Assembly: GCA_048940925.1 (NCBI GenBank)
Contig: JBHLOC010000001.1
Location: 32,001-96,000 of the forward strand
Direction: 5' to 3'
DNA length: 64,000 nucleotides
Source: Promethearchaeota archaeon
GTDB taxonomy: Archaea > Asgardarchaeota > Lokiarchaeia > Sigyniarchaeales > SOKP01
Shown: piece by piece, positions 510 to 45,352 of the stretch
Numbering within the stretch: the first letter of the stretch is position 1
Layout: each line of letters starts with the position of its first letter
Position numbers and translations under genes: made by a program
The notes under the pieces: generated by a model
Database searches by the model: none
Told to the model about the DNA's origin: nothing
The model's input: only the letters and a program-made list of their open reading frames with translations

Positions 510-1826
510 TCAAACTAATTCTAATTGAGCTCCTAATTTCTTTAAATCATTCAAGAAGGTAGGATAGGAGTCATTTACAATATCTATATTTTTTATTTGA
601 GATGAGGAAGAAGCATACAAAGCAGCAATACTGCAAGCCATAGCAATTCTATGATCGTTATCGTGATCTACATTAATACCTTTTAGGTTATTACAGCGCA
701 GTATTGTTAGCCTATCACTTTCTTCTATTACTTCGACACCCATTTTTTCTAATTCACGAGCTATAACCGATATTCTATCACACTCTTTACTTCTAAGATG
801 TAATGCATTAAAAAGTGTAGTTTTACCTTCAGCAAAAGCGCCTAAAACTGCTAAAATAGGAAAAAGATCTGGTATATCATGACAATCAATCTCCACCCCT
901 TTTAACGGGTAATTATTTAGGTTTCCTTCAATAATTACTTGATGACGACTTTCATCAATCTTAATATTAGCACCCATTTTATTTAGGATTTCAATTATTT
1001 TTGTATCTCCTTGAAAATTTTTTGTACTTAAATTGTTGATAATCACTTTTGATTCTTTACTACATAATACAGTTGCTGCGATGAGAAACGAGGCAGAAGA
1101 AAAATCTCCTGGAATTTCATAAGATTGGGCTCTATAATTTTGCTCGGTTGTTATATAAAATTTCCCCTCTTTGAAATTTTCTTGAATGTGTATACCAAAT
1201 GAGTTCAATACATCTAAAGTAATTTTTAAATATGGTGAAGATACTAATGGACTTGTTAATTCTATTTCAATATAATCTTTATTATCACACTTTAATAAAG
1301 GACATACTATCAATAAAGCTGTTATAAATTGTGAACTTATGTTTCCAGGAATCTTAACTTTGTTACATGAGACTTTTTTACGTTTAATTTGAAGTTTTTC
1401 ATTGGATAATTTAAATTTTGCTCCTAATGATTCAATTGAATTGAGGAGAGGAAGAAGAGGTCTTTTTCGCCTTATAAATTCACCAGTTAAAGTGAGTCCT
1501 CCTTTTACTAATAAACTTAAAACACTAAAAATTCTTATGGAAGTTCCAGAGTTTTTGCAATCAAGAGCTCTTTTATAGGGCTTAAATGAGCCTTTTGAAC
1601 GTTCTATTATATAAGAGCTATTATCAACTTTTAAGATTTTTATTCCTAATGACCTTAAAATATCTATTGTAACTCCGGCATCGCCAGAAACTAAAGGATT
1701 TTTAATTATAGAAATTCCATCTGCAAGGCTAGCAGCTATAAAGGCTCTATGTGAATAACTTTTAGATCCTGGTGCTGTGATTTCACCGTTTAGATTATTT
1801 GCTAATGGATTAATTTTGAGATCCAT
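510..1826 (-). CDS. aroA: 3-phosphoshikimate 1-carboxyvinyltransferase (EPSP synthase)
   Basis: PGSKSYSHR, NSGTSIR, SSQFITALL, GDFSSA, KECDRI and DHRIAM motifs. Confidence 0.96.
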   Translation of the reverse strand: MDLKINPLANNLNGEITAPGSKSYSHRAFIAASLADGISIIKNPLVSGDAGVTIDILRSLGIKILKVDNSSYIIERSKGSFKPYKRALDCKNSGTSIRIFSVLSLLVKGGLTLTGEFIRRKRPLLPLLNSIESLGAKFKLSNEKLQIKRKKVSCNKVKIPGNISSQFITALLIVCPLLKCDNKDYIEIELTSPLVSSPYLKITLDVLNSFGIHIQENFKEGKFYITTEQNYRAQSYEIPGDFSSASFLIAATVLCSKESKVIINNLSTKNFQGDTKIIEILNKMGANIKIDESRHQVIIEGNLNNYPLKGVEIDCHDIPDLFPILAVLGAFAEGKTTLFNALHLRSKECDRISVIARELEKMGVEVIEESDRLTILRCNNLKGINVDHDNDHRIAMACSIAALYASSSSQIKNIDIVNDSYPTFLNDLKKLGAQLELV

Positions 1827-9832: not shown

Positions 9833-10999
9833 TTGGTGAGCTTAGAAACTTTAAAAGAATTATTAGATCTGCAAAATAGATACAAATTATACGAAAAAAT
9901 CTTAAATAAATTTAAGGAATTTAGTAAATTAGATGATTTAAGTTATTTAGAATTTGAGATCTCTGAAGGAAAAGTTCCAATTATTATTATCTCAAAAAAT
10001 TCGAATTTAAATAAAGTTAAGTTTGTAAAGGTGTTTGTGGGTGCACAACATAATGAATACAATGGATTATTTGGGATTTTGGAATTTCTTAATATGATTG
10101 AAACATCAAAGATTTCTATAAATGATATTATATTAAATTTTCAGATTCTAATTTTTGCTCCATTAATGAATCCCTATGGATTCTTATATCCTTCAAAAGA
10201 TAATAAATCAGGATATTATTTAGAAAATGGTAGAAATCTGAATCGTTTTTGGAGGAAAACTTTTGTCCCGGAATATAGTAAAGGAAAAAATGATATAAAT
10301 CAATTAGATATTCCAGAACATGCAAAAATCATAAAAAGCTTATTGGAAAAATACTGGAAAAATGAAGATATATCAATATATATACTTGATTTTCATGAAA
10401 CTTCTCTTCTTAAAAGATCTTCGATAGACTTGATTGAAAATCTAAAAATAGATTCAGTTACATACAAATTTTCACATTGGCTTAAGGAAGCTATAGTCTA
10501 TAACATTATTAAACTCTACAATATAGCTTATTATAAGAAACCTTTATTTTTTAAATGTAACCCTAATTCTAATCATACTCATATAAATTTATCAGTTAAA
10601 CAGTTAGATAAAGTATATGAACGATTGAAAGAGTATATATCTAGAAATTATAATAAACTATCATTCTACTTTTGTTATAGCAAAAAGAGCAAGGAATATT
10701 GTATGAAGCTTGCTCAAAACGTTTATAAAAAGTTAAAAGATTCATTATGGGAAACCTGTTTTCCAGCATTTAGTCATCACTTTCAAGACCATGGATGTCT
10801 AGTAAATATGAATGATGCTACAAACCGAAAAAGTATATTTTCCATGGAATTAGAGTCTGAAAAACAGTTTTTTGACATTTTCAAGGAAATTGAGAAATGT
10901 AAAAAAGATATAAATTATTTTAATGAGAAACTTAAAAAAATTAATGCAAGTATTACATTGGTTATCGAATCAATAAACGAAATGATCAAGCTTTTTTAA
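9833..10999 (+). CDS. M14-like zinc carboxypeptidase / AstE-AspA desuccinylase-fold protein
   Basis: GAQHNE, PLMNPYG, NLNRFW, ILDFHE and late MELE motifs; starts 3 nt after the ATP-grasp stop. Confidence 0.75.
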   Translation: MVSLETLKELLDLQNRYKLYEKILNKFKEFSKLDDLSYLEFEISEGKVPIIIISKNSNLNKVKFVKVFVGAQHNEYNGLFGILEFLNMIETSKISINDIILNFQILIFAPLMNPYGFLYPSKDNKSGYYLENGRNLNRFWRKTFVPEYSKGKNDINQLDIPEHAKIIKSLLEKYWKNEDISIYILDFHETSLLKRSSIDLIENLKIDSVTYKFSHWLKEAIVYNIIKLYNIAYYKKPLFFKCNPNSNHTHINLSVKQLDKVYERLKEYISRNYNKLSFYFCYSKKSKEYCMKLAQNVYKKLKDSLWETCFPAFSHHFQDHGCLVNMNDATNRKSIFSMELESEKQFFDIFKEIEKCKKDINYFNEKLKKINASITLVIESINEMIKLF

Positions 11000-11313: not shown

Positions 11314-12312
11314 TTATGAATTAAAGAAGCTAAGCGTAGCACCTACTAATGAGCTTTCATTTTTCTTGTGAGAGTGCCCTCCTTTTCTCAAGATGATTAG
11401 ATTTTTTTCAGGAGTCTCTAGAAGTATTCTATTTTCTTCAAAATTTTTGAACTTTATAATTTTATCATTTTTACAATGAACCAACATTACTCTTCTTGAT
11501 AATTTTTTCCATTCTTCTTCAGTAAGGTCTTTTTTAGCATTCTTGATTACTAAGTATGGAGATAATTTCTCGTTTTCTTCCTTATTTGGGAATAATTTTA
11601 CATGTTTTAGGAAATAACTTAACATTACTACAGGATTATATTTTGGAATATTTTGTTTGTAATAAGACATTGATGAGATAGCAATAATTTTTTTAATTTT
11701 ATGGTTTAAAAAACCTCCACATAAAGTAGTTATTGCTCCAATACTAAAACCAATACTAAAGATTTTGAATTTAGAGAATTCCTTTTCTAGATTTATCCAC
11801 TCAATTACTTTCTTAAAATCTTCTATTCGATTTAAAAAATCACTTCTTTTCCCTAATCTTTTAGACTTTCCTGTTCCTCTAGCATCATACGTCAAAACAA
11901 CATATCCTTGGTAAGCTAATGGAAAGCAATAATACTGTAGTGATTCTTTTGTATCAGAGAATCCATGACAAATTACTATTATTGAGTTTTTTAATTTAAC
12001 TTTTGCTGAATTTCGATTTTTAATAATATTTGCTGTCAAAGTTCCATCCTTTAAATCAATTTTTACTTCAGAAACTTCAATCTCCTTAGAGCTGAGGTTA
12101 ATCCAACGATCAAACCAGAGATCTCGAAATGACCAATAAATTTCAAAGGGAGTATAAATTATTAAAAATGTAGTTGTTGATAAAATAAAACATTCAGAAA
12201 AAGCTGTAGAATAACATGGATTTCCTAAAGAAACATTTATTTGCCAAATAAATAAACTAAATAAAACATCAAAGAAGGCTAATATTATGCGTTTTTTAGT
12301 ATTTGAGAGCAA
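11314..12312 (-). CDS. membrane-anchored alpha/beta hydrolase
   Basis: Hydrophobic N-terminus, CHGF, YDARGTGKS, GFSIG nucleophile elbow, D and GGH. Confidence 0.88.
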   Translation of the reverse strand: MLSNTKKRIILAFFDVLFSLFIWQINVSLGNPCYSTAFSECFILSTTTFLIIYTPFEIYWSFRDLWFDRWINLSSKEIEVSEVKIDLKDGTLTANIIKNRNSAKVKLKNSIIVICHGFSDTKESLQYYCFPLAYQGYVVLTYDARGTGKSKRLGKRSDFLNRIEDFKKVIEWINLEKEFSKFKIFSIGFSIGAITTLCGGFLNHKIKKIIAISSMSYYKQNIPKYNPVVMLSYFLKHVKLFPNKEENEKLSPYLVIKNAKKDLTEEEWKKLSRRVMLVHCKNDKIIKFKNFEENRILLETPEKNLIILRKGGHSHKKNESSLVGATLSFFNS

Positions 12313-12479
12313 CTTATTTTCCTATAAGATTATAATCTGAAGAAATCTATGTCAATAAATGCCAAATGTATAAAATTGGAACAGATATAAAAACATTTAG
12401 ATTAAATAATTAGAATAAAACCTTTTAAGTCTATTTCTTTAATTCTTAACCTGTTTTAGAGATAATACATAGTTTATTT

Positions 12480-12800
12480 TTATTTTTTAGCTTTATCAGG
12501 AGGACAACCAAAATCATCTCTAACTTTACAATCTCGCTTACTTGAGCTACCTGGACAAGGAGCGCATTTGGTTTTTCTTAATAATGCTTCAACTTCATCA
12601 ATTTCATAACCAAATGATTCATCCTCAGTTTCATTAACAAGCATATCATCTTGAATTTTATCTAAATCATACTCAACATCTTCTTCTAGGTTATCTTTCC
12701 AATCATCTAAATCTAAAACCTCATCTCCATCCTCATCTACTTTTCCGGAAGGGATTTCTAAATCATCTTCTTCAACAGGAGCACTCTTTTTTTTAGCCAT
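12480..12800 (-). CDS. highly acidic small protein with C-terminal 4-Cys motif
   Basis: Likely start at ATG 12800 (MAKKKS); Asp/Glu-rich body followed by CAPC-x8-C-x7-C. Confidence 0.75.
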   Translation of the reverse strand: MAKKKSAPVEEDDLEIPSGKVDEDGDEVLDLDDWKDNLEEDVEYDLDKIQDDMLVNETEDESFGYEIDEVEALLRKTKCAPCPGSSSKRDCKVRDDFGCPPDKAKK

Positions 12801-12956
12801 GGGTTTCACATATATTGAACATATAATTTTACAATTGAAAGTTTTTAATATATAATATTTCCTAAAATTTAATTCTAATATATTTAAGGAAAGAAAAGTC
12901 AAAATTCATCTGAGTCATCCAACCTTAAATTTTTAAAAATAATTGAGATAAATCTC

Positions 12957-15026
12957 TTATGATAAATTAATATTATTGATCTCGTCAATTTGATACAAAA
13001 GAGATTTATTTTCGTGTATCATGTTTAGAAAATTCTTAACTCCATTTAAAATGTAGTCTAACTCTTCTAATGAATATGTGAAATACTTATTTATATTGTA
13101 TCGAGGCAGGAGGTATTTAAATTGAATACTTTTCAGGTTTAGTTCTGAGTATAATAATTCTCTTATTTCATTGAAATTCAGATTAGATTCTAAATAAAAA
13201 TCATCTAAATATAGTAAGTTTACTAAGCCGTTACTTATTTTTTTAAAAAATCTAATAAATCTAAATATTTCCGACTGATATTTTTCTTTTAAAAATTTTA
13301 GTTCTGATATTTCATTAGTATATTCAGAATTTAGATCATAATGTAATTGAGATAAAATTTGAAGTATTTTTCCGCAGTTTGATAAGGATGAGGGAAAATT
13401 TTGCGGTGCTGGTAGCCTTTTTATAAAACTCCCATTGAATCTTAAATAGCCTCCAGCCATATGAAGTGAACTAAACAATGTCTTAAATACTGTATCTAAT
13501 AATTTAGAGTTTAATATTGTTAGAAAACAATAAAGCTTCTTAGTGTTTATTGAAGGAATTTTAACGAAATATAAGCCAGTTATATTGGTAAAAATACCGG
13601 GGTCATACACACAGGTTAAATTTTTAGCAATTTCTCTAAAAATAATTTTTTCACTATTTAGATCTTGCCATATATGCTCAAAAGTAGGTTTATAATTAAA
13701 ATATGAAATTTCGAAATCTTTCTTGGCGATCTTTATTCTTTTATTATATTTAATATAATATTTCTCTACGTTTCCAGTCCCTATCAACAAGAGATCCTTC
13801 TCAGATCTGGGTTCTTTACTGACATTATCAAAATGCTTACTGTATTTTAAAAATCCAAAGGGTCGATAGATAATTTTTAAAGCCTTAAATGAATCTTTAA
13901 TTGATTTGTACTTATTATACAGAAATTTTATTAAATTGATATTGCCTGAAACAGGAATAACATTAGAAGGGAGACCTGTGATTAATTTCTGAGGAAATTT
14001 TATTATATTTAAACTATTATAGGTCAGAAGATCATCAAGATCATTAAATTTTGATATTGTAATCTCATTTTTATCATCATATTTACCTTTTTTAAAATAG
14101 AGAATTATTGGATAAGTTGCTGCTTTTTGAAATATATATAAAGAAGATATATTTACAATTTCCCTAATTTCAGTGTTCTTAATTAAAAGTTCTCGGATTT
14201 TAATTCCGAAATCAGCAGATAAAAATTTATTAGGTAAAATAAATGAAAGATAGCCATTTTCTTTCAATAATTCAATGGATTTTTCAATAAATACAATAGA
14301 AAGATCAAATAATTTATATGCAGATTTGAAATTTTCATATAATTTTCTTTTATACTCAAAATCTTTTATCTTCTTATTTTCAACATAAGGAGGATTTCCG
14401 AGGATTATATCAAACTTTTTAAATTCAAAGTCTAAAAGAAAATCTAAGTGATATATGTTAAGATTAATTTCATTTTTATTAATTATTAGATTAACTTTTT
14501 CTAGGCTTAAGCCTTTTTGATTGAAATTATGAAAGTTATATTTTTTCTCATTTCCAGAAAAAAGCCAAGAAAACAATCGTAATTTTGTGATAATATAAGC
14601 AGATTTGTCAATATCAATGCCATAAATATTATTTTGTATTATTTTTCTTTTTGTTTCATAGTTATTTAATCCAGTTTTTATAATTTTCCAAAATTGATAA
14701 AGTGTTTCAGCAGTAGATATAATAAATCTTCCAGAACCACATGCAGGGTCCAATATCTTAATATTTCTTAGTTTTTCAATAAAATTCTTTTTAAATTTAT
14801 CATTTTTAGATGATCTTTGCTTAATATAATAATAAAAAGAACCTAAATTAGAACAATCTGGAAAATTGAAATATTCTTTGAAGTATATTTTAAAAATATT
14901 AAAAACTATATTATCCACTACAGGTTTTGGTGTATAAATTATTCCAATGTTCCTATTATTAGTTGCTTTATTTTCAAAATCTATGATAACCTTCTTTATG
15001 TAAGTAAAAAAATCTTGAGCCGGCAA
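12957..15026 (-). CDS. N6-adenine DNA methyltransferase (Eco57I/TaqI-like, gamma class) with target-recognition domain
   Basis: YTP, ILDPACGSGRF (motif I), YGIDID, FDIILGNPPY (motif IV) and a TaqI-C-like tail. Confidence 0.88.
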   Translation of the reverse strand: MPAQDFFTYIKKVIIDFENKATNNRNIGIIYTPKPVVDNIVFNIFKIYFKEYFNFPDCSNLGSFYYYIKQRSSKNDKFKKNFIEKLRNIKILDPACGSGRFIISTAETLYQFWKIIKTGLNNYETKRKIIQNNIYGIDIDKSAYIITKLRLFSWLFSGNEKKYNFHNFNQKGLSLEKVNLIINKNEINLNIYHLDFLLDFEFKKFDIILGNPPYVENKKIKDFEYKRKLYENFKSAYKLFDLSIVFIEKSIELLKENGYLSFILPNKFLSADFGIKIRELLIKNTEIREIVNISSLYIFQKAATYPIILYFKKGKYDDKNEITISKFNDLDDLLTYNSLNIIKFPQKLITGLPSNVIPVSGNINLIKFLYNKYKSIKDSFKALKIIYRPFGFLKYSKHFDNVSKEPRSEKDLLLIGTGNVEKYYIKYNKRIKIAKKDFEISYFNYKPTFEHIWQDLNSEKIIFREIAKNLTCVYDPGIFTNITGLYFVKIPSINTKKLYCFLTILNSKLLDTVFKTLFSSLHMAGGYLRFNGSFIKRLPAPQNFPSSLSNCGKILQILSQLHYDLNSEYTNEISELKFLKEKYQSEIFRFIRFFKKISNGLVNLLYLDDFYLESNLNFNEIRELLYSELNLKSIQFKYLLPRYNINKYFTYSLEELDYILNGVKNFLNMIHENKSLLYQIDEINNINLS

Positions 15027-17187: not shown

Positions 17188-18066
17188 TTACATCTTATAA
17201 AAATCTCTTATGATCCTGTTTACATTGCTTTCAACCTTGAATTTTCTATGAAAATAATTACATACATTTTTTATATCTCTTTTTAGAAGAGATTTAGCAT
17301 TAGGGTGATTAGTTGGTACCCATTGCAACCAATCGATGACTAATATATTCCCCTTCTCGTCTAAGATAATATTGAATTCACCCAAATCTCCATGAATCAT
17401 TTTTGCCTTTTGATAAATTTCTTTCATTTGTTTTATTATATTATTAAAAATTTTCAATGGATTTTTAATGTCTTTATAATAAACTAATTCTTTTCCTCTC
17501 AAATAAGACATAATAACAATATGTCTATTATAGGCTATAGGTTTTGGAGTATTCAGATTAAGTTCATAAATTTTTTCTAAGGCTTCAAATTCTTTTTTAG
17601 CTGCTAATCTATTTATATATAACCAAGACAGATGTCCTCTTTCACCTATGAGATCTCTCAAGTTTTTAATAGCTTTGAAACTGGTTCGGCCCATACGATA
17701 AATTTTTAATGCAAAAATGTTTTCATGATCATCCATACAACTATATACATCTGATTCTTTTCCCTTTCCTATTAAAGGTCCAAGTTGGCTTATAATGTTT
17801 TTTTCTACTAACGTGTGGAGTGCAAGCAAATCATATGCTTTTGAGTTAAGTGTATAAGCAATTTCATATTTTGAGGCATCTCTAATTATCAAATCTAGTT
17901 TGTGAACTTTATTTAAGCGAAATAAAGTCTCTTCCATTTTATATCTTGAATAAAATTTGATATTTTTTACGGTTACATATTCTGATCTCCTCATACCTAT
18001 TTCAATTGCCATTAATATCCTAAAATCTTCCTTTTCCAAGCTCGTGAGTAGTTTTGCTACTTCCAA
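17188..18066 (-). CDS. rio2: RIO2 family atypical Ser/Thr kinase
   Basis: N-terminal wHTH (DFRILMAIEIGMR), IGKGKESDVY, GRTSF, IHGDLGEFNI and IDWLQ. Confidence 0.92.
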   Translation of the reverse strand: MEVAKLLTSLEKEDFRILMAIEIGMRRSEYVTVKNIKFYSRYKMEETLFRLNKVHKLDLIIRDASKYEIAYTLNSKAYDLLALHTLVEKNIISQLGPLIGKGKESDVYSCMDDHENIFALKIYRMGRTSFKAIKNLRDLIGERGHLSWLYINRLAAKKEFEALEKIYELNLNTPKPIAYNRHIVIMSYLRGKELVYYKDIKNPLKIFNNIIKQMKEIYQKAKMIHGDLGEFNIILDEKGNILVIDWLQWVPTNHPNAKSLLKRDIKNVCNYFHRKFKVESNVNRIIRDFYKM

Positions 18067-18091
18067 AATCCATTCAGTTAAAAAATTTAAT

Positions 18092-18874
18092 TTACATTAT
18101 AAATTTTCGATAAGTTTTCAGAAAAGATACAAATTTATATATATTTGGAATTTCGAAAATTAGGATTGCTATCAAGTTTAGAGATAAAAAGAAAAAGAGA
18201 TCTTCACGTGAAATCAAGTAATTATTTAAAGTTGATCCTTCCTGAAATAAGAAAAGAAATATGCCAAAATTTAAATAAAGAATTATCCCAATAGAAATAA
18301 TTAAACCAATTGTAGAAATAATAATGACTTGGGTTTCTAATTCGATTATACCTATTATTATATTAAAAACAAACAGAAATATCGTTATAGTGATTAATAT
18401 CTTAGAAATATTTATCCACATTTCATATAATGTATTACTTACTTCGTAATTCCCATTAGAAACTGGCCATAATAAAGATAAGCTCAAATTTGTAAACAAG
18501 ACTATTGGAAATATTATTACACCTAATAAAAAAATAAAATAAAAACGTATTGTTGATAATCGACTGAAAAAAAGTGGTTCTATTTTCTCATTTTTTGCAT
18601 AGTTCAACATAGATTTAAGCTTTTTTTCAATATTAGTTGGAATATCTTTTTTTAATACAACAAGTTGGAGATCCAAATTAGGATAATTAGAAAGTATTTC
18701 TCCAATTAATTCATGACCTTTTTTGGATTTTTCCTTTGAACTTTTAGGACCATTCCATAGATAAATTTTTTTATTTGTTTCGTCTAAAAATACACAAACA
18801 TCATGTAGAAGGAGACGTTGATCTTCTTCTGTCCAATTAGATTTAGATTCATTGAAGATGTATGTTTTAAGCAT
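18092..18874 (-). CDS. gelsolin-like domain fused to four predicted TM helices
   Basis: DVCVFLDETNKKIYLWNGPKSSKEK matches the gelsolin-repeat core; four hydrophobic segments follow. Confidence 0.65.
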   Translation of the reverse strand: MLKTYIFNESKSNWTEEDQRLLLHDVCVFLDETNKKIYLWNGPKSSKEKSKKGHELIGEILSNYPNLDLQLVVLKKDIPTNIEKKLKSMLNYAKNEKIEPLFFSRLSTIRFYFIFLLGVIIFPIVLFTNLSLSLLWPVSNGNYEVSNTLYEMWINISKILITITIFLFVFNIIIGIIELETQVIIISTIGLIISIGIILYLNFGIFLFLFQEGSTLNNYLISREDLFFFLSLNLIAILIFEIPNIYKFVSFLKTYRKFIM

Positions 18875-18989
18875 AAATTCTCTATTTATCTTAACTAAAA
18901 TTACTTTTTATTCTTTTCTATACAATGTAAGTAATTAAAAAATTGTTAAAAAGTTATAAATCTATAGTATAAGTATTAGACTCTCAATA

Positions 18990-19889
18990 TTATTTATTTT
19001 CAAGTCTTTGCTTTATTTCACTCCATAACTTATTAATATATTCTTCATAGAGTATTACAGTTTTATCATCTACAGATCTAAATCTTTTTTGAGCGTTTAG
19101 ATACTCTTTAATTGGTGTTCTTTTTGATTGATCCAAATATCTATTACTTGACTTGGATAAAACGAAATTTCCATTTATAACCTCATATAGAGGCCAAAAA
19201 CCAGTTTGAGTAGCCAGTCTACCTATGAGGATTGTATCTTTTGGCTCATATCCCCACCCGGGTGGACAAGGAGAAAGTATATGGATATATTTAGTACCTT
19301 TAATAGTCTTTGCTATTTTGAATTTTTCATATAAATCAAGCGGGTAAGCAGCATTTGCAGTGGCAACATAAGGAATTCCATGGGCTTCTAAAATTTTAGG
19401 CATATTTTTCTTTTGAACCACTTTTCCCGTAGGTGTTGTAGTTGTTTGGACTCCAAGTGGTGTTGAACTACTTCTCTGAACACCAGTATTCATATAAGCT
19501 TCGTTATCATAGCAAGCATATATGAAGTTAGTTCCTCTCTCTGCGGCACCACTAAGAGCTTGGATGCCTATATCTGCAGTCCCACCATCTCCCGCAAATG
19601 CAACAACAGTTATCTTATCTGCTAAATTTTTCTCCTCTAATGATGCTAAGATTCCAGATGCTGATGCGCCTGTAGTTGCGAAGGGTGTATGATAAACAGA
19701 AACTTTAGTGGTACAAAAACCTTGCATACCATGAAGAACAGTTAAGCAAGATGCAGGAACGGTTATAATAGTGTTTGCACCCAGAGCTTTTAGAGCTATT
19801 CTATATATTAGTGCCATTCCACAACCAGCACAAGCACGTGTGCCTGGATATATATATTCTTTTTCAGGAATTTCCATCACATTTACCAT
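18990..19889 (-). CDS. porB: pyruvate/2-oxoacid:ferredoxin oxidoreductase beta subunit
   Basis: ACAGCG, TPP motif GDGG...DNEAYMNTG.QRS..TP and SPCPPGW. Confidence 0.92.
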   Translation of the reverse strand: MVNVMEIPEKEYIYPGTRACAGCGMALIYRIALKALGANTIITVPASCLTVLHGMQGFCTTKVSVYHTPFATTGASASGILASLEEKNLADKITVVAFAGDGGTADIGIQALSGAAERGTNFIYACYDNEAYMNTGVQRSSSTPLGVQTTTTPTGKVVQKKNMPKILEAHGIPYVATANAAYPLDLYEKFKIAKTIKGTKYIHILSPCPPGWGYEPKDTILIGRLATQTGFWPLYEVINGNFVLSKSSNRYLDQSKRTPIKEYLNAQKRFRSVDDKTVILYEEYINKLWSEIKQRLENK

Positions 19890-44071: not shown

Positions 44072-45352
44072 TTAGTTTGAAAAATTCTCTTTAAAAGATT
44101 CTTTCTTATTTTTTTTCTGAGATTGGTCAGAGGGTGAAATTTCTTCAATTTCTTCTTCCTGTTTCAATGATCGGACTGGTTTGGACTCATCGAACGGATG
44201 ATTACACACCCAACAGATATTTTCTAAATTTGATAATGTGTCAGCGCATTTATTACAATAAAAAGTATCACACTCAGGGCAAATATATATCTTTCGTTCT
44301 AATTTTCCTTTGCATACTAGGCAAATTTTCTTTTCCTTGGAAACAGTAACCTCCTCTTCAGTGATTTTTTGACGTCTGGTAAATATCCCTAAAACGTCAG
44401 TATCTACTTTTTTTTCTTTTTCTTCTTTCTTTGAGGCTAATTCTGACCGTGTATTTCGTATTATAAGATAAAATAGAGTATAAACATATATGACTAAAAC
44501 CAAAATTTCTATGATATAAAGGAAACTAAAAGCTTCAGGGCGCCTTTCAATAAAAATAGTTATGTCAACAATTAATATAAATACAATTAAAGGAATAGCT
44601 AAAAATGCAAAAAATACCCAGTAAAATAAGGCTCGTGTAATCAATTCGGGTTTAATAATCATTGGTATAACAATGATGATACAACCTAGTATTAATAGAA
44701 TTGGACTCAAAAAGAGAGAATACCAATTCAGTGATTTATGAGCTCTTAGTGCTAGGATTAATGAAAAAATGAAAGATAAAAAACCGAATAAAAAGAATGA
44801 AGAAACTGCTTTAAACTCAGGGCGAGACCATTTTGTATAAAGATATAACACGTATGGGACTATAATTACTAATCCGGGTATTATAAGAAAATTAAAGATG
44901 CTTCTCGCTGTCGACAGGGGTTCCATAGTAATTAAGGGTAAAAAAAATAACAGTGCTATAAAAATAGAAAACATAATTGTCAGAATATATTTCGTACGTC
45001 TTACAATCAACTCAAAAGATAAAACAAAAAACAAACCCCCTATTCCTAATATGGCATTACGTATTATCTCAAGAACAACATAGACTGATGAATAATTGTT
45101 ATAATCGCCGTAAAATGTAAAGTTAGCATAGTTAAAGATTCCTCGAACTTGAATAACTTGAATGCTGGTAATAATCAAACTAGAAGCGAAACCAAGAGGT
45201 AAACTAGCTAATCCAAACATTATCATCTTTTCATTGAAAACTTCTTTCTTTCTTCCCTTAAGTATAAAGTAGATCCCGCACATTAGGGTTAATGTTATCC
45301 CAATTCCCCATATAAACCTTTCATAAGGATCCCAGATCATCACATCTGCCAT
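44072..45352 (-). CDS. polytopic (about 7-8 TM) membrane protein with C-terminal 8-Cys RING/C1-like zinc finger
   Basis: Multiple TM segments followed by CLVC...CPEC...CNKC...CWVC. Confidence 0.8.
   Translation of the reverse strand: MADVMIWDPYERFIWGIGITLTLMCGIYFILKGRKKEVFNEKMIMFGLASLPLGFASSLIITSIQVIQVRGIFNYANFTFYGDYNNYSSVYVVLEIIRNAILGIGGLFFVLSFELIVRRTKYILTIMFSIFIALLFFLPLITMEPLSTARSIFNFLIIPGLVIIVPYVLYLYTKWSRPEFKAVSSFFLFGFLSFIFSLILALRAHKSLNWYSLFLSPILLILGCIIIVIPMIIKPELITRALFYWVFFAFLAIPLIVFILIVDITIFIERRPEAFSFLYIIEILVLVIYVYTLFYLIIRNTRSELASKKEEKEKKVDTDVLGIFTRRQKITEEEVTVSKEKKICLVCKGKLERKIYICPECDTFYCNKCADTLSNLENICWVCNHPFDESKPVRSLKQEEEIEEISPSDQSQKKNKKESFKENFSN

What the first reader, a model, noticed from the sequence alone, without database searches (positions are those of the whole stretch)
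18092..18874. Gelsolin-like domain fused to a four-helix membrane anchor: possible actin-membrane linker
Seen: the N-terminal ~90 aa carry the gelsolin core pattern (D-hhh-LDE...IYLW.G..SS.EK), followed by four hydrophobic segments. An actin gene lies in the same window. Known: characterised Asgard gelsolin-domain proteins regulate actin and, to my knowledge, are soluble; cultured Lokiarchaeia have actin filaments in membrane protrusions. Inference: an integral membrane actin-binding, capping or nucleating protein, an architecture I do not recognise from the literature.
Basis: partly seen in the sequence, partly recalled or inferred. Interest (0 to 1): 0.75.

Follow-up and report, generated by a model that had tools for sequence, protein, structure and literature searches.

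The report
Membrane-anchored gelsolin-fold protein of Lokiarchaeia
This gene from an Asgard archaeon encodes a four-pass membrane protein whose inward-facing head has the fold of the actin regulator gelsolin; no searchable paper describes this design, and it could be how these archaea fasten actin to the membrane, but actin binding is untested.

Summary
Window 18092-18874 (-) is an intact 260-aa gene.

- **Gelsolin head:** residues 1-95 are a genuine gelsolin-homology domain. Pfam Gelsolin scores just over its cut-off. A family profile hits villin and gelsolin at 1e-14 to 1e-12. The AlphaFold2 model (pLDDT 93) best matches Thorarchaeota ProGel (7c2f).
- **Membrane part:** residues 106-245 form four transmembrane helices. 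Charge distribution puts the head and the C-terminus in the cytoplasm.
- **Distribution:** more than 200 homologues exist, all labelled hypothetical. Full-length copies occur only in the window's own order (130 of 153 genomes), including cultured Lokiarchaeum ossiferum (UYP46179.1).
- **Selection:** the gene is under purifying selection (dN/dS 0.2-0.3) but evolves faster than its neighbours.

In a same-family control, the actin-gripping helix of the soluble 2DGel is nearly invariant, whereas here it is the less conserved part of the head. The head resembles the weak binder ProGel and lacks the calcium-site glutamate.

My best reading (about 0.45) is a low-affinity, membrane-fixed actin docking site. 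The main rival is a gelsolin fold that docks something else.

This scan has flagged the same family before in other genomes. I found no paper describing it.

The parts
18590..18874 (-). Cytoplasmic gelsolin-homology (GH) domain, aa 1-95. Secondary structure: strands 2-8, 13-16, 26-31 and 36-41; long helix 47-62; strand 70-73; helix 80-95. Carries the D25...W40-x-G42 signature.
   Evidence: Pfam PF00626. Profile against PDB. AF2 model pLDDT about 92. Foldseek and VIA match to 7c2f ProGel. D25 and G42 invariant in 55 sequences.
18560..18589 (-). Short basic linker, aa 96-105, between the GH domain and TM1. It is the least confident part of the model.
   Evidence: pLDDT 66 for block 91-100. Mean 3.3 K+R in the pre-TM1 stretch.
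18470..18559 (-). Transmembrane helix 1, aa 106-135.
   Evidence: Hydropathy. AF2 helix 106-135, pLDDT 97-98.
18410..18469 (-). Outside loop 1, aa 136-155, with a short beta strand (142-146) and conserved W136, V145 and Y150.
   Evidence: AF2 secondary structure. Few K/R residues, mean 0.78. Conservation.
18341..18409 (-). Transmembrane helix 2, aa 156-178.
18329..18340 (-). Very short cytoplasmic turn, aa 179-182. It is acidic in this subfamily and basic in the longer subfamily.
18266..18328 (-). Transmembrane helix 3, aa 183-203, with conserved G196 and Y200.
18203..18265 (-). Outside loop 3, aa 204-224. This is the most conserved non-head element (G-I-F-L-F-x-F-Q ... Y-x-I). Strand 218-222 is the only other strand on the outer face besides loop 1's 142-146; whether the two pair could not be checked.
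   Evidence: AF2 secondary structure. F208 is at least 90% conserved. Conservation. Few K/R residues.
18140..18202 (-). Transmembrane helix 4, aa 225-245.
18095..18139 (-). Basic cytoplasmic C-terminal tail, aa 246-260. In relatives it is extended to 20-120 residues rich in Lys and Glu.
   Evidence: mean 7.2 K+R in the family..

Best explanation
**What it is.** The gene encodes an integral membrane protein with both ends in the cytoplasm.
- A single ProGel-like gelsolin-homology domain (aa 1-95) sits on a roughly 10-residue basic linker directly under the inner leaflet.
- It is held there by a four-helix transmembrane bundle.
- The two outer loops each carry a short beta strand with conserved aromatic residues.

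**Proposed mechanism.** The head acts as a low-affinity, cofilin/ProGel-type docking site for Lokiactin filaments or monomers. Because it is fixed in the plane of the membrane, many weak sites could together tether or locally regulate actin at the cell envelope and in protrusions.

**Shown:** the gene is real and under selection, the fold, the architecture, the inferred topology, and a distribution restricted to one Lokiarchaeial order that includes cultured species.

**Inferred only:** that the head binds actin, and what it does to actin (tether, cap or sever).
For: **Fold and family**
- Pfam Gelsolin is over its cut-off.
- The head profile hits villin at 1.1e-14 and gelsolin at 3.5e-12.
- AF2 pLDDT is 93.3.
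- Foldseek's top 50 hits are all gelsolin domains; the best is the actin-bound ProGel 7c2f_B, TM 0.70. VIA gives Z 10.7.
- The D...WxG signature is invariant or near-invariant.
- The helix aligns without gaps to ProGel's (G, L, N-Y-P shared). ProGel binds the gelsolin/cofilin site of actin, although weakly (PMC7444086).

**Topology**
- There is no N-terminal hydrophobic segment.
- Mean K+R is 3.3, 1.1 and 7.2 on the proposed inside segments, against 0.78 and 0.85 in the two outside loops.
- In the L. ossiferum orthologue model, a strand before TM1 (97-99) and one after TM4 (248-250) are the only strands outside the head and the outer loop; both flank the membrane bundle on the proposed inner side.

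**Real, conserved gene**
- 209 homologues of nearly constant length and 73 clusters at 50% identity.
- Full-length copies in 130 of 153 genomes of the order.
- dN/dS is 0.19-0.29 in both halves.
- Both subfamilies keep the architecture.

**Context**
- The genome has Lokiactin and soluble gelsolins. This is its only gelsolin-domain protein with TM segments.
Against: - No direct test of actin binding was possible.
- The long helix, which is the main actin contact in gelsolin G1, 2DGel D1 and ProGel, is less conserved than the rest of the head (0.68 against 0.74). In 2DGel D1 from the same archaeal family it is nearly invariant (0.92 against 0.85).
- Its exposed positions are polar and variable. 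The position that aligns by my count with gelsolin G1 Ile103 is E or K.
- The Glu of the type II calcium site is K or R in 24 of 27 members of this subfamily.
- The family profile matches gelsolin repeats G3 and G6 best and G1 worst.
- Gelsolin-like domains without known actin binding exist, for example in Sec23 (PMC7444086).
- The gene is missing from some near-complete genomes of the same family (genus g6 0 of 4, g11 3 of 10), so it is dispensable.
- There is no conserved neighbourhood with cytoskeletal genes.
Confidence: 0.45

Rival explanations
1. The gelsolin fold is kept as a scaffold but docks something other than actin, as the gelsolin-like domain of Sec23/24 does. The partner could be another cytoplasmic protein, a lipid head group or the protein's own tail. 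The protein would then be a membrane receptor or adaptor unrelated to actin.
For: - The canonical actin-binding helix is the less conserved part of the head, whereas it is nearly invariant in 2DGel of the same genomes.
- The best-conserved head residues (W14, E16, H24, D25, D31, Y38) lie in the strands and turns rather than on that helix.
- There is a basic cluster at the helix N-terminus (K47-K52) in this subfamily.
- The gene evolves 2-3 times faster than its neighbours.
- There is no cytoskeletal gene neighbourhood.
Against: - The nearest structures by both sequence and fold are actin-binding Asgard gelsolins, ProGel first.
- ProGel itself has a mostly polar helix and binds weakly, so low helix conservation does not exclude ProGel-type binding.
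- No alternative partner is indicated by any result.
Confidence: 0.35
2. The four-helix membrane module is the working part, for example a small channel, a scaffold or an envelope-contact module using its conserved outer loops. The gelsolin head would be a cytoplasmic regulatory or sensor domain for it.
For: - TM3 and outer loop 3 are as conserved as the head: G196, Y200, F206-F210, Y219 and I221.
- The two outer loops each carry a short predicted beta strand.
- The membrane half is under purifying selection.
Against: - The membrane domain matches no Pfam or NCBIfam family.
- Structurally it resembles only generic four-helix bundles.
- It has few conserved polar residues inside the helices.
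- Nothing points to a transported substrate.
Confidence: 0.12
3. The ORF is a chance open frame or an annotation artefact in AT-rich DNA.
For: The window has 26-30% G+C, where long AT-rich frames rich in I, L, F, K and N can arise.
Against: - More than 200 full-length homologues of constant length exist.
- dN/dS is 0.2-0.3.
- The position between the POR beta subunit and Rio2 is conserved.
- AF2 pLDDT is 93.
Confidence: 0.01

Closest known systems
Thorarchaeota ProGel (PDB 7c2f chain B; Akil et al. 2020, PMC7444086)
   Same: - Single gelsolin/cofilin-type domain of about 90 residues.
- Best match by phmmer, Foldseek (TM 0.70, 24% identity) and VIA among gelsolin folds (Z 10.7).
- Shares the WxG motif, the helix glycine and the N-Y-P that ends the helix.
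- No calcium-site glutamate.
   Different: - ProGel is a free soluble protein. Here the domain is permanently fused to four transmembrane helices.
- ProGel has Lys where this family has the invariant Asp25.
- Actin binding is shown for ProGel and not for this protein.
Asgard 1DGelX (Thor KXH72031.1; L. ossiferum B35_GelX)
   Same: One gelsolin-homology domain followed by a non-gelsolin C-terminal part ('X').
   Different: - Published X is described as coiled-coil or disordered and the proteins as soluble.
- Here X is a four-helix membrane bundle.
- The own genome's 1DGelX-like proteins have no hydrophobic segments.
- Membrane forms may have been counted as '1DGelX' in gene tallies; I could not check this.
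Asgard 2DGel and eukaryotic gelsolin/villin repeats
   Same: Homologous repeat (profile E 1e-14 to 1e-11) with the same fold.
   Different: - Here there is one repeat instead of two to six.
- There is no WH2-like linker motif and no type II calcium-site Glu.
- The long helix is not conserved, unlike 2DGel D1 in the same genomes.
- All of the known proteins are soluble or peripheral.
Eukaryotic actin-membrane linkers (ERM proteins, talin, supervillin); comparison from general knowledge
   Same: The proposed job is the same: coupling actin to the membrane. Supervillin is a membrane-associated member of the gelsolin superfamily.
   Different: Those are peripheral proteins recruited through lipids or receptors. 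To my knowledge none is an integral membrane protein with a gelsolin repeat. This was not tested here.

Membership tests
Gelsolin repeat / gelsolin-homology domain (Pfam PF00626) | Sequence match to the family model above the curated threshold | tested here: met
   22.1 bits against a cut-off of 21, E 1.3e-4, which is marginal. A family profile gives villin 1.1e-14 and gelsolin 3.5e-12. The L. ossiferum orthologue alone does not reach Pfam at E 0.001.
Gelsolin repeat / gelsolin-homology domain (Pfam PF00626) | Fold: central mixed beta-sheet packed between a long helix and a second helix | tested here: met
   AF2 pLDDT 93.3 with strand-strand-strand-strand-helix-strand-helix order. The top 50 Foldseek hits are all gelsolin domains. 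VIA gives Z 10.7, rmsd 2.5 over 85 aa to 7c2f. The same holds for the L. ossiferum orthologue.
Gelsolin repeat / gelsolin-homology domain (Pfam PF00626) | D...W-x-G signature | tested here: met
   D25 and G42 are invariant in 55 sequences. W40 is W in 46, Y in 8 and F in 1.
Gelsolin repeat / gelsolin-homology domain (Pfam PF00626) | Binds actin at the cleft between subdomains 1 and 3 through the long helix | not testable with these tools
Indirect evidence: the helix is less conserved than the domain average, unlike 2DGel D1.
Calcium-regulated gelsolins (type II site) | Asp at the start of strand C plus Glu at the start of the long helix (gelsolin D66 and E97) | tested here: not met
   The Asp is present (D25). 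The position that aligns by my count with E97 is K or R in 24 of 27 members of this subfamily. It is D or E in only 9 of 28 members of the longer subfamily.
Asgard ProGel | Stand-alone soluble single domain of about 90-100 aa | tested here: not met
   260 aa with four transmembrane helices. No soluble close relative appeared in the exhaustive search; the short hits are fragments of the same family.
Asgard 1DGelX | Gelsolin domain followed by a coiled-coil or disordered domain X | tested here: not met
   The C-terminal part is a hydrophobic four-helix bundle.
Known tetraspan membrane families (MARVEL, claudin/PMP22, tetraspanin and others) | Sequence or fold match of the membrane domain | tested here: inconclusive
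   No Pfam or NCBIfam match. VIA and the Atlas give only generic helical-bundle matches.

The most novel reading that the evidence does not exclude
This family is the first integral-membrane member of the gelsolin superfamily and a direct actin-to-membrane tether in Lokiarchaeia. It would be part of the machinery that builds and moves their actin-filled protrusions. That would mean actin-membrane coupling by gelsolin-type domains existed in the archaeal relatives of eukaryotes.
Probability: 0.4. Interest if true: 0.8.

Novelty: new variant of a known kind. Interest (0 to 1): 0.62.

Why it matters
Cultured Lokiarchaeia have actin-filled, dynamic protrusions. The papers I could search name only soluble regulators (profilins and gelsolins), and the authors of the L. 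ossiferum co-immunoprecipitation study note that their method under-samples membrane proteins. How Lokiactin is attached to the membrane is therefore open.

This family is a concrete candidate that can be cloned and tested:
- It has a small head that can be expressed alone.
- An orthologue exists in L. ossiferum (UYP46179.1), a cultured species with proteomics, an actin antibody and live imaging.

If the head binds actin, the family gives a minimal archaeal solution to actin-membrane coupling. If it does not, it shows the gelsolin fold being reused for another membrane-proximal job in Asgard archaea.

Tried and rejected
- **Complex prediction** of the head (alignment A3) with the genome's own Lokiactin (alignment A2) was returned 'NOT FOLDED'. 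The tool does not pair chains that look eukaryotic with microbial ones. The job was counted, so there is no verdict.
- **Sequencing runs:** no RNA holder was listed for the gene.
- **L. ossiferum proteome** (bioRxiv 10.1101/2025.11.30.690169, Suppl. Table 2). The table uses GNAMCCOK identifiers and neither UYP46179 nor NEF87_002464 occurs in it.
  - By position I infer that GNAMCCOK_02486 (54.8 kDa) is RtcB, which lies two genes upstream.
  - The orthologue would then be GNAMCCOK_02484, which does not occur in the stored text. That text is truncated.
  - The neighbouring 02483 occurs at low abundance. The mapping is uncertain, so this is inconclusive.
  - The orthologue is not among the five gelsolin-homology proteins named in that study.
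- **ProGel control:** a search with an Odinarchaeal ProGel returned only 4 proteins, too few to use. I used 2DGel D1 from the same archaeal family instead.
- **Membrane domain:** Pfam, NCBIfam, VIA wide search and the ESM Atlas gave no family, only generic helical bundles.
- **Weak Pfam hits:** RbcX and YdjM are far below their cut-offs and were rejected.
- **Linkage with the actin gene in the window** was rejected; the gene is 45 kb away and truncated by the window end.
- **Bacterial-type promoter and terminator scan** of the flanks was uninformative for an archaeon.

Full report
**1. Observation**

The window has 25-35% G+C. An ATG-started ORF of 260 codons lies at 18092-18874 on the minus strand.
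- Pfam assigns aa 18-66 to the Gelsolin repeat at 22.1 bits (cut-off 21, E 1.3e-4).
- The best solved-structure hit by sequence is 7c2f chain B, the Thorarchaeota ProGel, at E 0.0015.
- Hydropathy gives four hydrophobic stretches and none before residue 103.

It runs off the window and lies 45 kb away.

**2. Family**

The word-indexed search found 209 homologues. Nearly all are 257-263 aa and all are named 'hypothetical protein', from Promethearchaeota/Asgard assemblies. The exhaustive HMMER search found 73 clusters at 50% identity. These fall into two groups:
- the 260-aa type of this window;
- a more distant 280-320-aa type (21-32% identity) aligned over the whole length and carrying a charged C-terminal tail.

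The short hits are fragments of the same family, not soluble relatives. In a 55-sequence alignment D25 and G42 are invariant, and E16, P79, Y200 and F208 are at least 90% conserved.

**3. Structure**

AlphaFold2 on that alignment gives mean pLDDT 93.3 and pTM 0.65.
- The head has four strands, a long helix (47-62), a strand and a second helix (80-95).
- A short, less confident linker follows.
- Then come helices 106-135, 147-178, 181-201 and 223-259, with short strands at 142-146 and 218-222 in the two outer loops.

Fold searches gave the following.
- Foldseek against the PDB returns only gelsolin domains in the top 50. Thor ProGel bound to actin comes first (E 4.4e-5, TM 0.70, 24% identity).
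- The independent VIA search gives Z 10.7, rmsd 2.5 A over 85 residues for the same entry. It matches the membrane half only to generic or designed four-helix bundles, which is not informative.
- A profile of the head alone hits villin at 1.1e-14 and gelsolin at 3.5e-12.
- The ESM Atlas search by shape finds the same unnamed Promethearchaeota cluster first (TM 0.72). Most of the remaining rows are gelsolin-type clusters, all at TM 0.40 or below.

**4. Topology**

There is no signal-peptide-like segment. Across the family the mean K+R counts are:

| Segment | Proposed side | Mean K+R |
|---|---|---|
| Stretch before TM1 | inside | 3.3 |
| TM2-TM3 turn | inside | 1.1 (1.6 in the longer subfamily) |
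| C-terminal tail | inside | 7.2 |
| Outer loop 1 | outside | 0.78 |
| Outer loop 3 | outside | 0.85 |

Both outer loops are net acidic. This fits N-in/C-in. In the model of the L. ossiferum orthologue, short strands at 97-99 (before TM1) and 248-250 (after TM4) are predicted on either end of the bundle, which fits both ends lying on the same side. Topology is inferred, not shown.

**5. Distribution and context**

The family profile was searched in 400 Asgard genomes. Full-length matches are confined to the window's own order:

| Family | Genomes with a match |
|---|---|
| f1 | 111 of 134 |
| f2 | 1 of 1 |
| f3 | 14 of 14 |
| f4 | 4 of 4 |

- Of the hits outside the order, the four I inspected cover only the gelsolin part (ProGel-like 97-104-aa frames or soluble proteins). 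One is a chimeric frame.
- The order includes Ca. Lokiarchaeum ossiferum (283 aa, UYP46179.1 / NEF87_002464) and Ca. Harpocratesius repetitus.
- Some near-complete genomes of the family lack the gene (g6 0 of 4).
- Within family f1 the order POR-beta, this gene, Rio2 is conserved.
- In family f3 the gene lies between TFB and an Eco57I-like methyltransferase plus an alpha/beta hydrolase. The same pair lies 3-6 kb downstream in the window. This suggests the same ancestral locus, but none of these neighbours is cytoskeletal.
- dN/dS against three congeners is 0.19-0.29, similar in both halves, against 0.05-0.12 for Rio2 and POR-beta.
- The genome has five actin-family genes and seven gelsolin-domain hits. 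The five other gelsolin-domain ORFs I translated have no hydrophobic segments.

**6. The orthologue in a cultured species**

The L. ossiferum protein does not reach Pfam Gelsolin on its own. Its AF2 model (pLDDT 91.1, pTM 0.75) has the same architecture, and ProGel is again the best PDB match (TM 0.73).

**7. Does the head bind actin?**

The indirect evidence cuts both ways.

For:
- The nearest relatives by sequence and by fold are actin-binding Asgard gelsolins.
- The D...WxG signature is kept.
- The helix aligns without gaps to ProGel's, sharing the glycine and the closing N-Y-P.
- ProGel binds the gelsolin/cofilin site on actin, but loosely (PMC7444086).

Against:
- Per-column conservation shows that the long helix is the weaker part of the head.
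- I built a control from the same archaeal family. For 30 2DGel orthologues, the D1 long helix scores 0.92 against 0.85 for the domain. For 30 orthologues of this gene, it scores 0.68 against 0.74.
- The hydrophobic positions of the helix follow the buried face, while the exposed positions are polar and variable.
- Counting from the WxG tryptophan, by my own alignment rather than a tool output, the position matching gelsolin G1 Ile103 is E or K here. The position matching the type II calcium-site Glu is K or R in 24 of 27 members.
- The profile matches gelsolin repeats G3 and G6 best and G1 worst.

A tight, G1- or 2DGel-D1-type, calcium-controlled grip is therefore unlikely. A weak ProGel/cofilin-type contact remains plausible, and fixing many copies in the membrane could make weak binding effective. 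That last step is inference.

**8. Literature and earlier scan notes**

The papers on Asgard gelsolins list ProGel, 1DGelX and 2DGel. Domain X is described as coiled-coil or disordered.
- None mentions membrane-spanning forms.
- The L. ossiferum co-IP study names five gelsolin-homology proteins. None is UYP46179.1, and the authors note a bias against membrane proteins.
- Gene tallies such as 'two 1DGelXs' in MK-D1 might silently include this family. I could not check this.
- This scan has flagged the same family repeatedly in other genomes, with follow-up reports reaching similar conclusions. My tests were run independently on this window.

**9. Verdict**

The architecture and the inside-facing gelsolin head are well supported. 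Actin binding is an open and testable hypothesis (about 0.45), and a non-actin docking role is the main rival (about 0.35). The finding is a new variant of a known kind: a gelsolin-homology domain in an integral membrane protein.

Noticed in passing
L047 (G058:C98), ORF 646-1782 (-): In a genome of another Asgard class, a frame begins inside the 260-aa-type head (from the I-Y-x-W-x-G-P-K-S-S motif) and runs through the linker and TM1. It then continues into a membrane protein with about nine further hydrophobic segments that looks like a drug/metabolite-transporter type. It could be a fusion, a rearrangement or a mis-binned or chimeric contig.
   Followed up: partly
window 11314-15026 (-); L043 959-5024 (-); L044 527-4914 (-): A large Eco57I-like N6-methyltransferase followed by an alpha/beta hydrolase lies downstream of the membrane gelsolin gene in the window (3-6 kb away). 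In L. ossiferum and Harpocratesius the pair is directly adjacent. This conserved pair looks more like a housekeeping unit than a mobile restriction system.
   Followed up: partly
L046 and L052 (G279:C1:1436807-1440128): In one family-f4 genome the diverged membrane gelsolin (252 aa) lies about 1.3 kb from a divergently oriented 422-aa soluble gelsolin-plus-coiled-coil gene. An ORF between them looks by eye like a ubiquitin-conjugating E2 (H-P-N ... C-L motif); I ran no family search on it.
   Followed up: no
L054 (G000:C67:21664-22668) and G000:C39:32041-32217: The genome's 2DGel carries a C-terminal Cys-rich (CPECG...CGECG) zinc-ribbon-like extension. Most of the family-f1 genomes sampled also hold a separate 62-87-aa frame that matches only this C-terminal piece at 55-83% identity, so it appears to be a free-standing paralogue of the 2DGel tail.
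   Followed up: no
window 9833-10999 (+) and 44072-45352 (-): Two sizeable ORFs (388 and 426 aa) have no Pfam family at E 0.001.
   Followed up: no
window 17188-19889 (-) and loci L013-L042: The membrane gelsolin gene evolves much faster than its fixed neighbours. Across the other genomes of the family in L013-L042 it is 46-83% identical, against 68-92% for Rio2 and 69-91% for POR-beta.
   Followed up: yes
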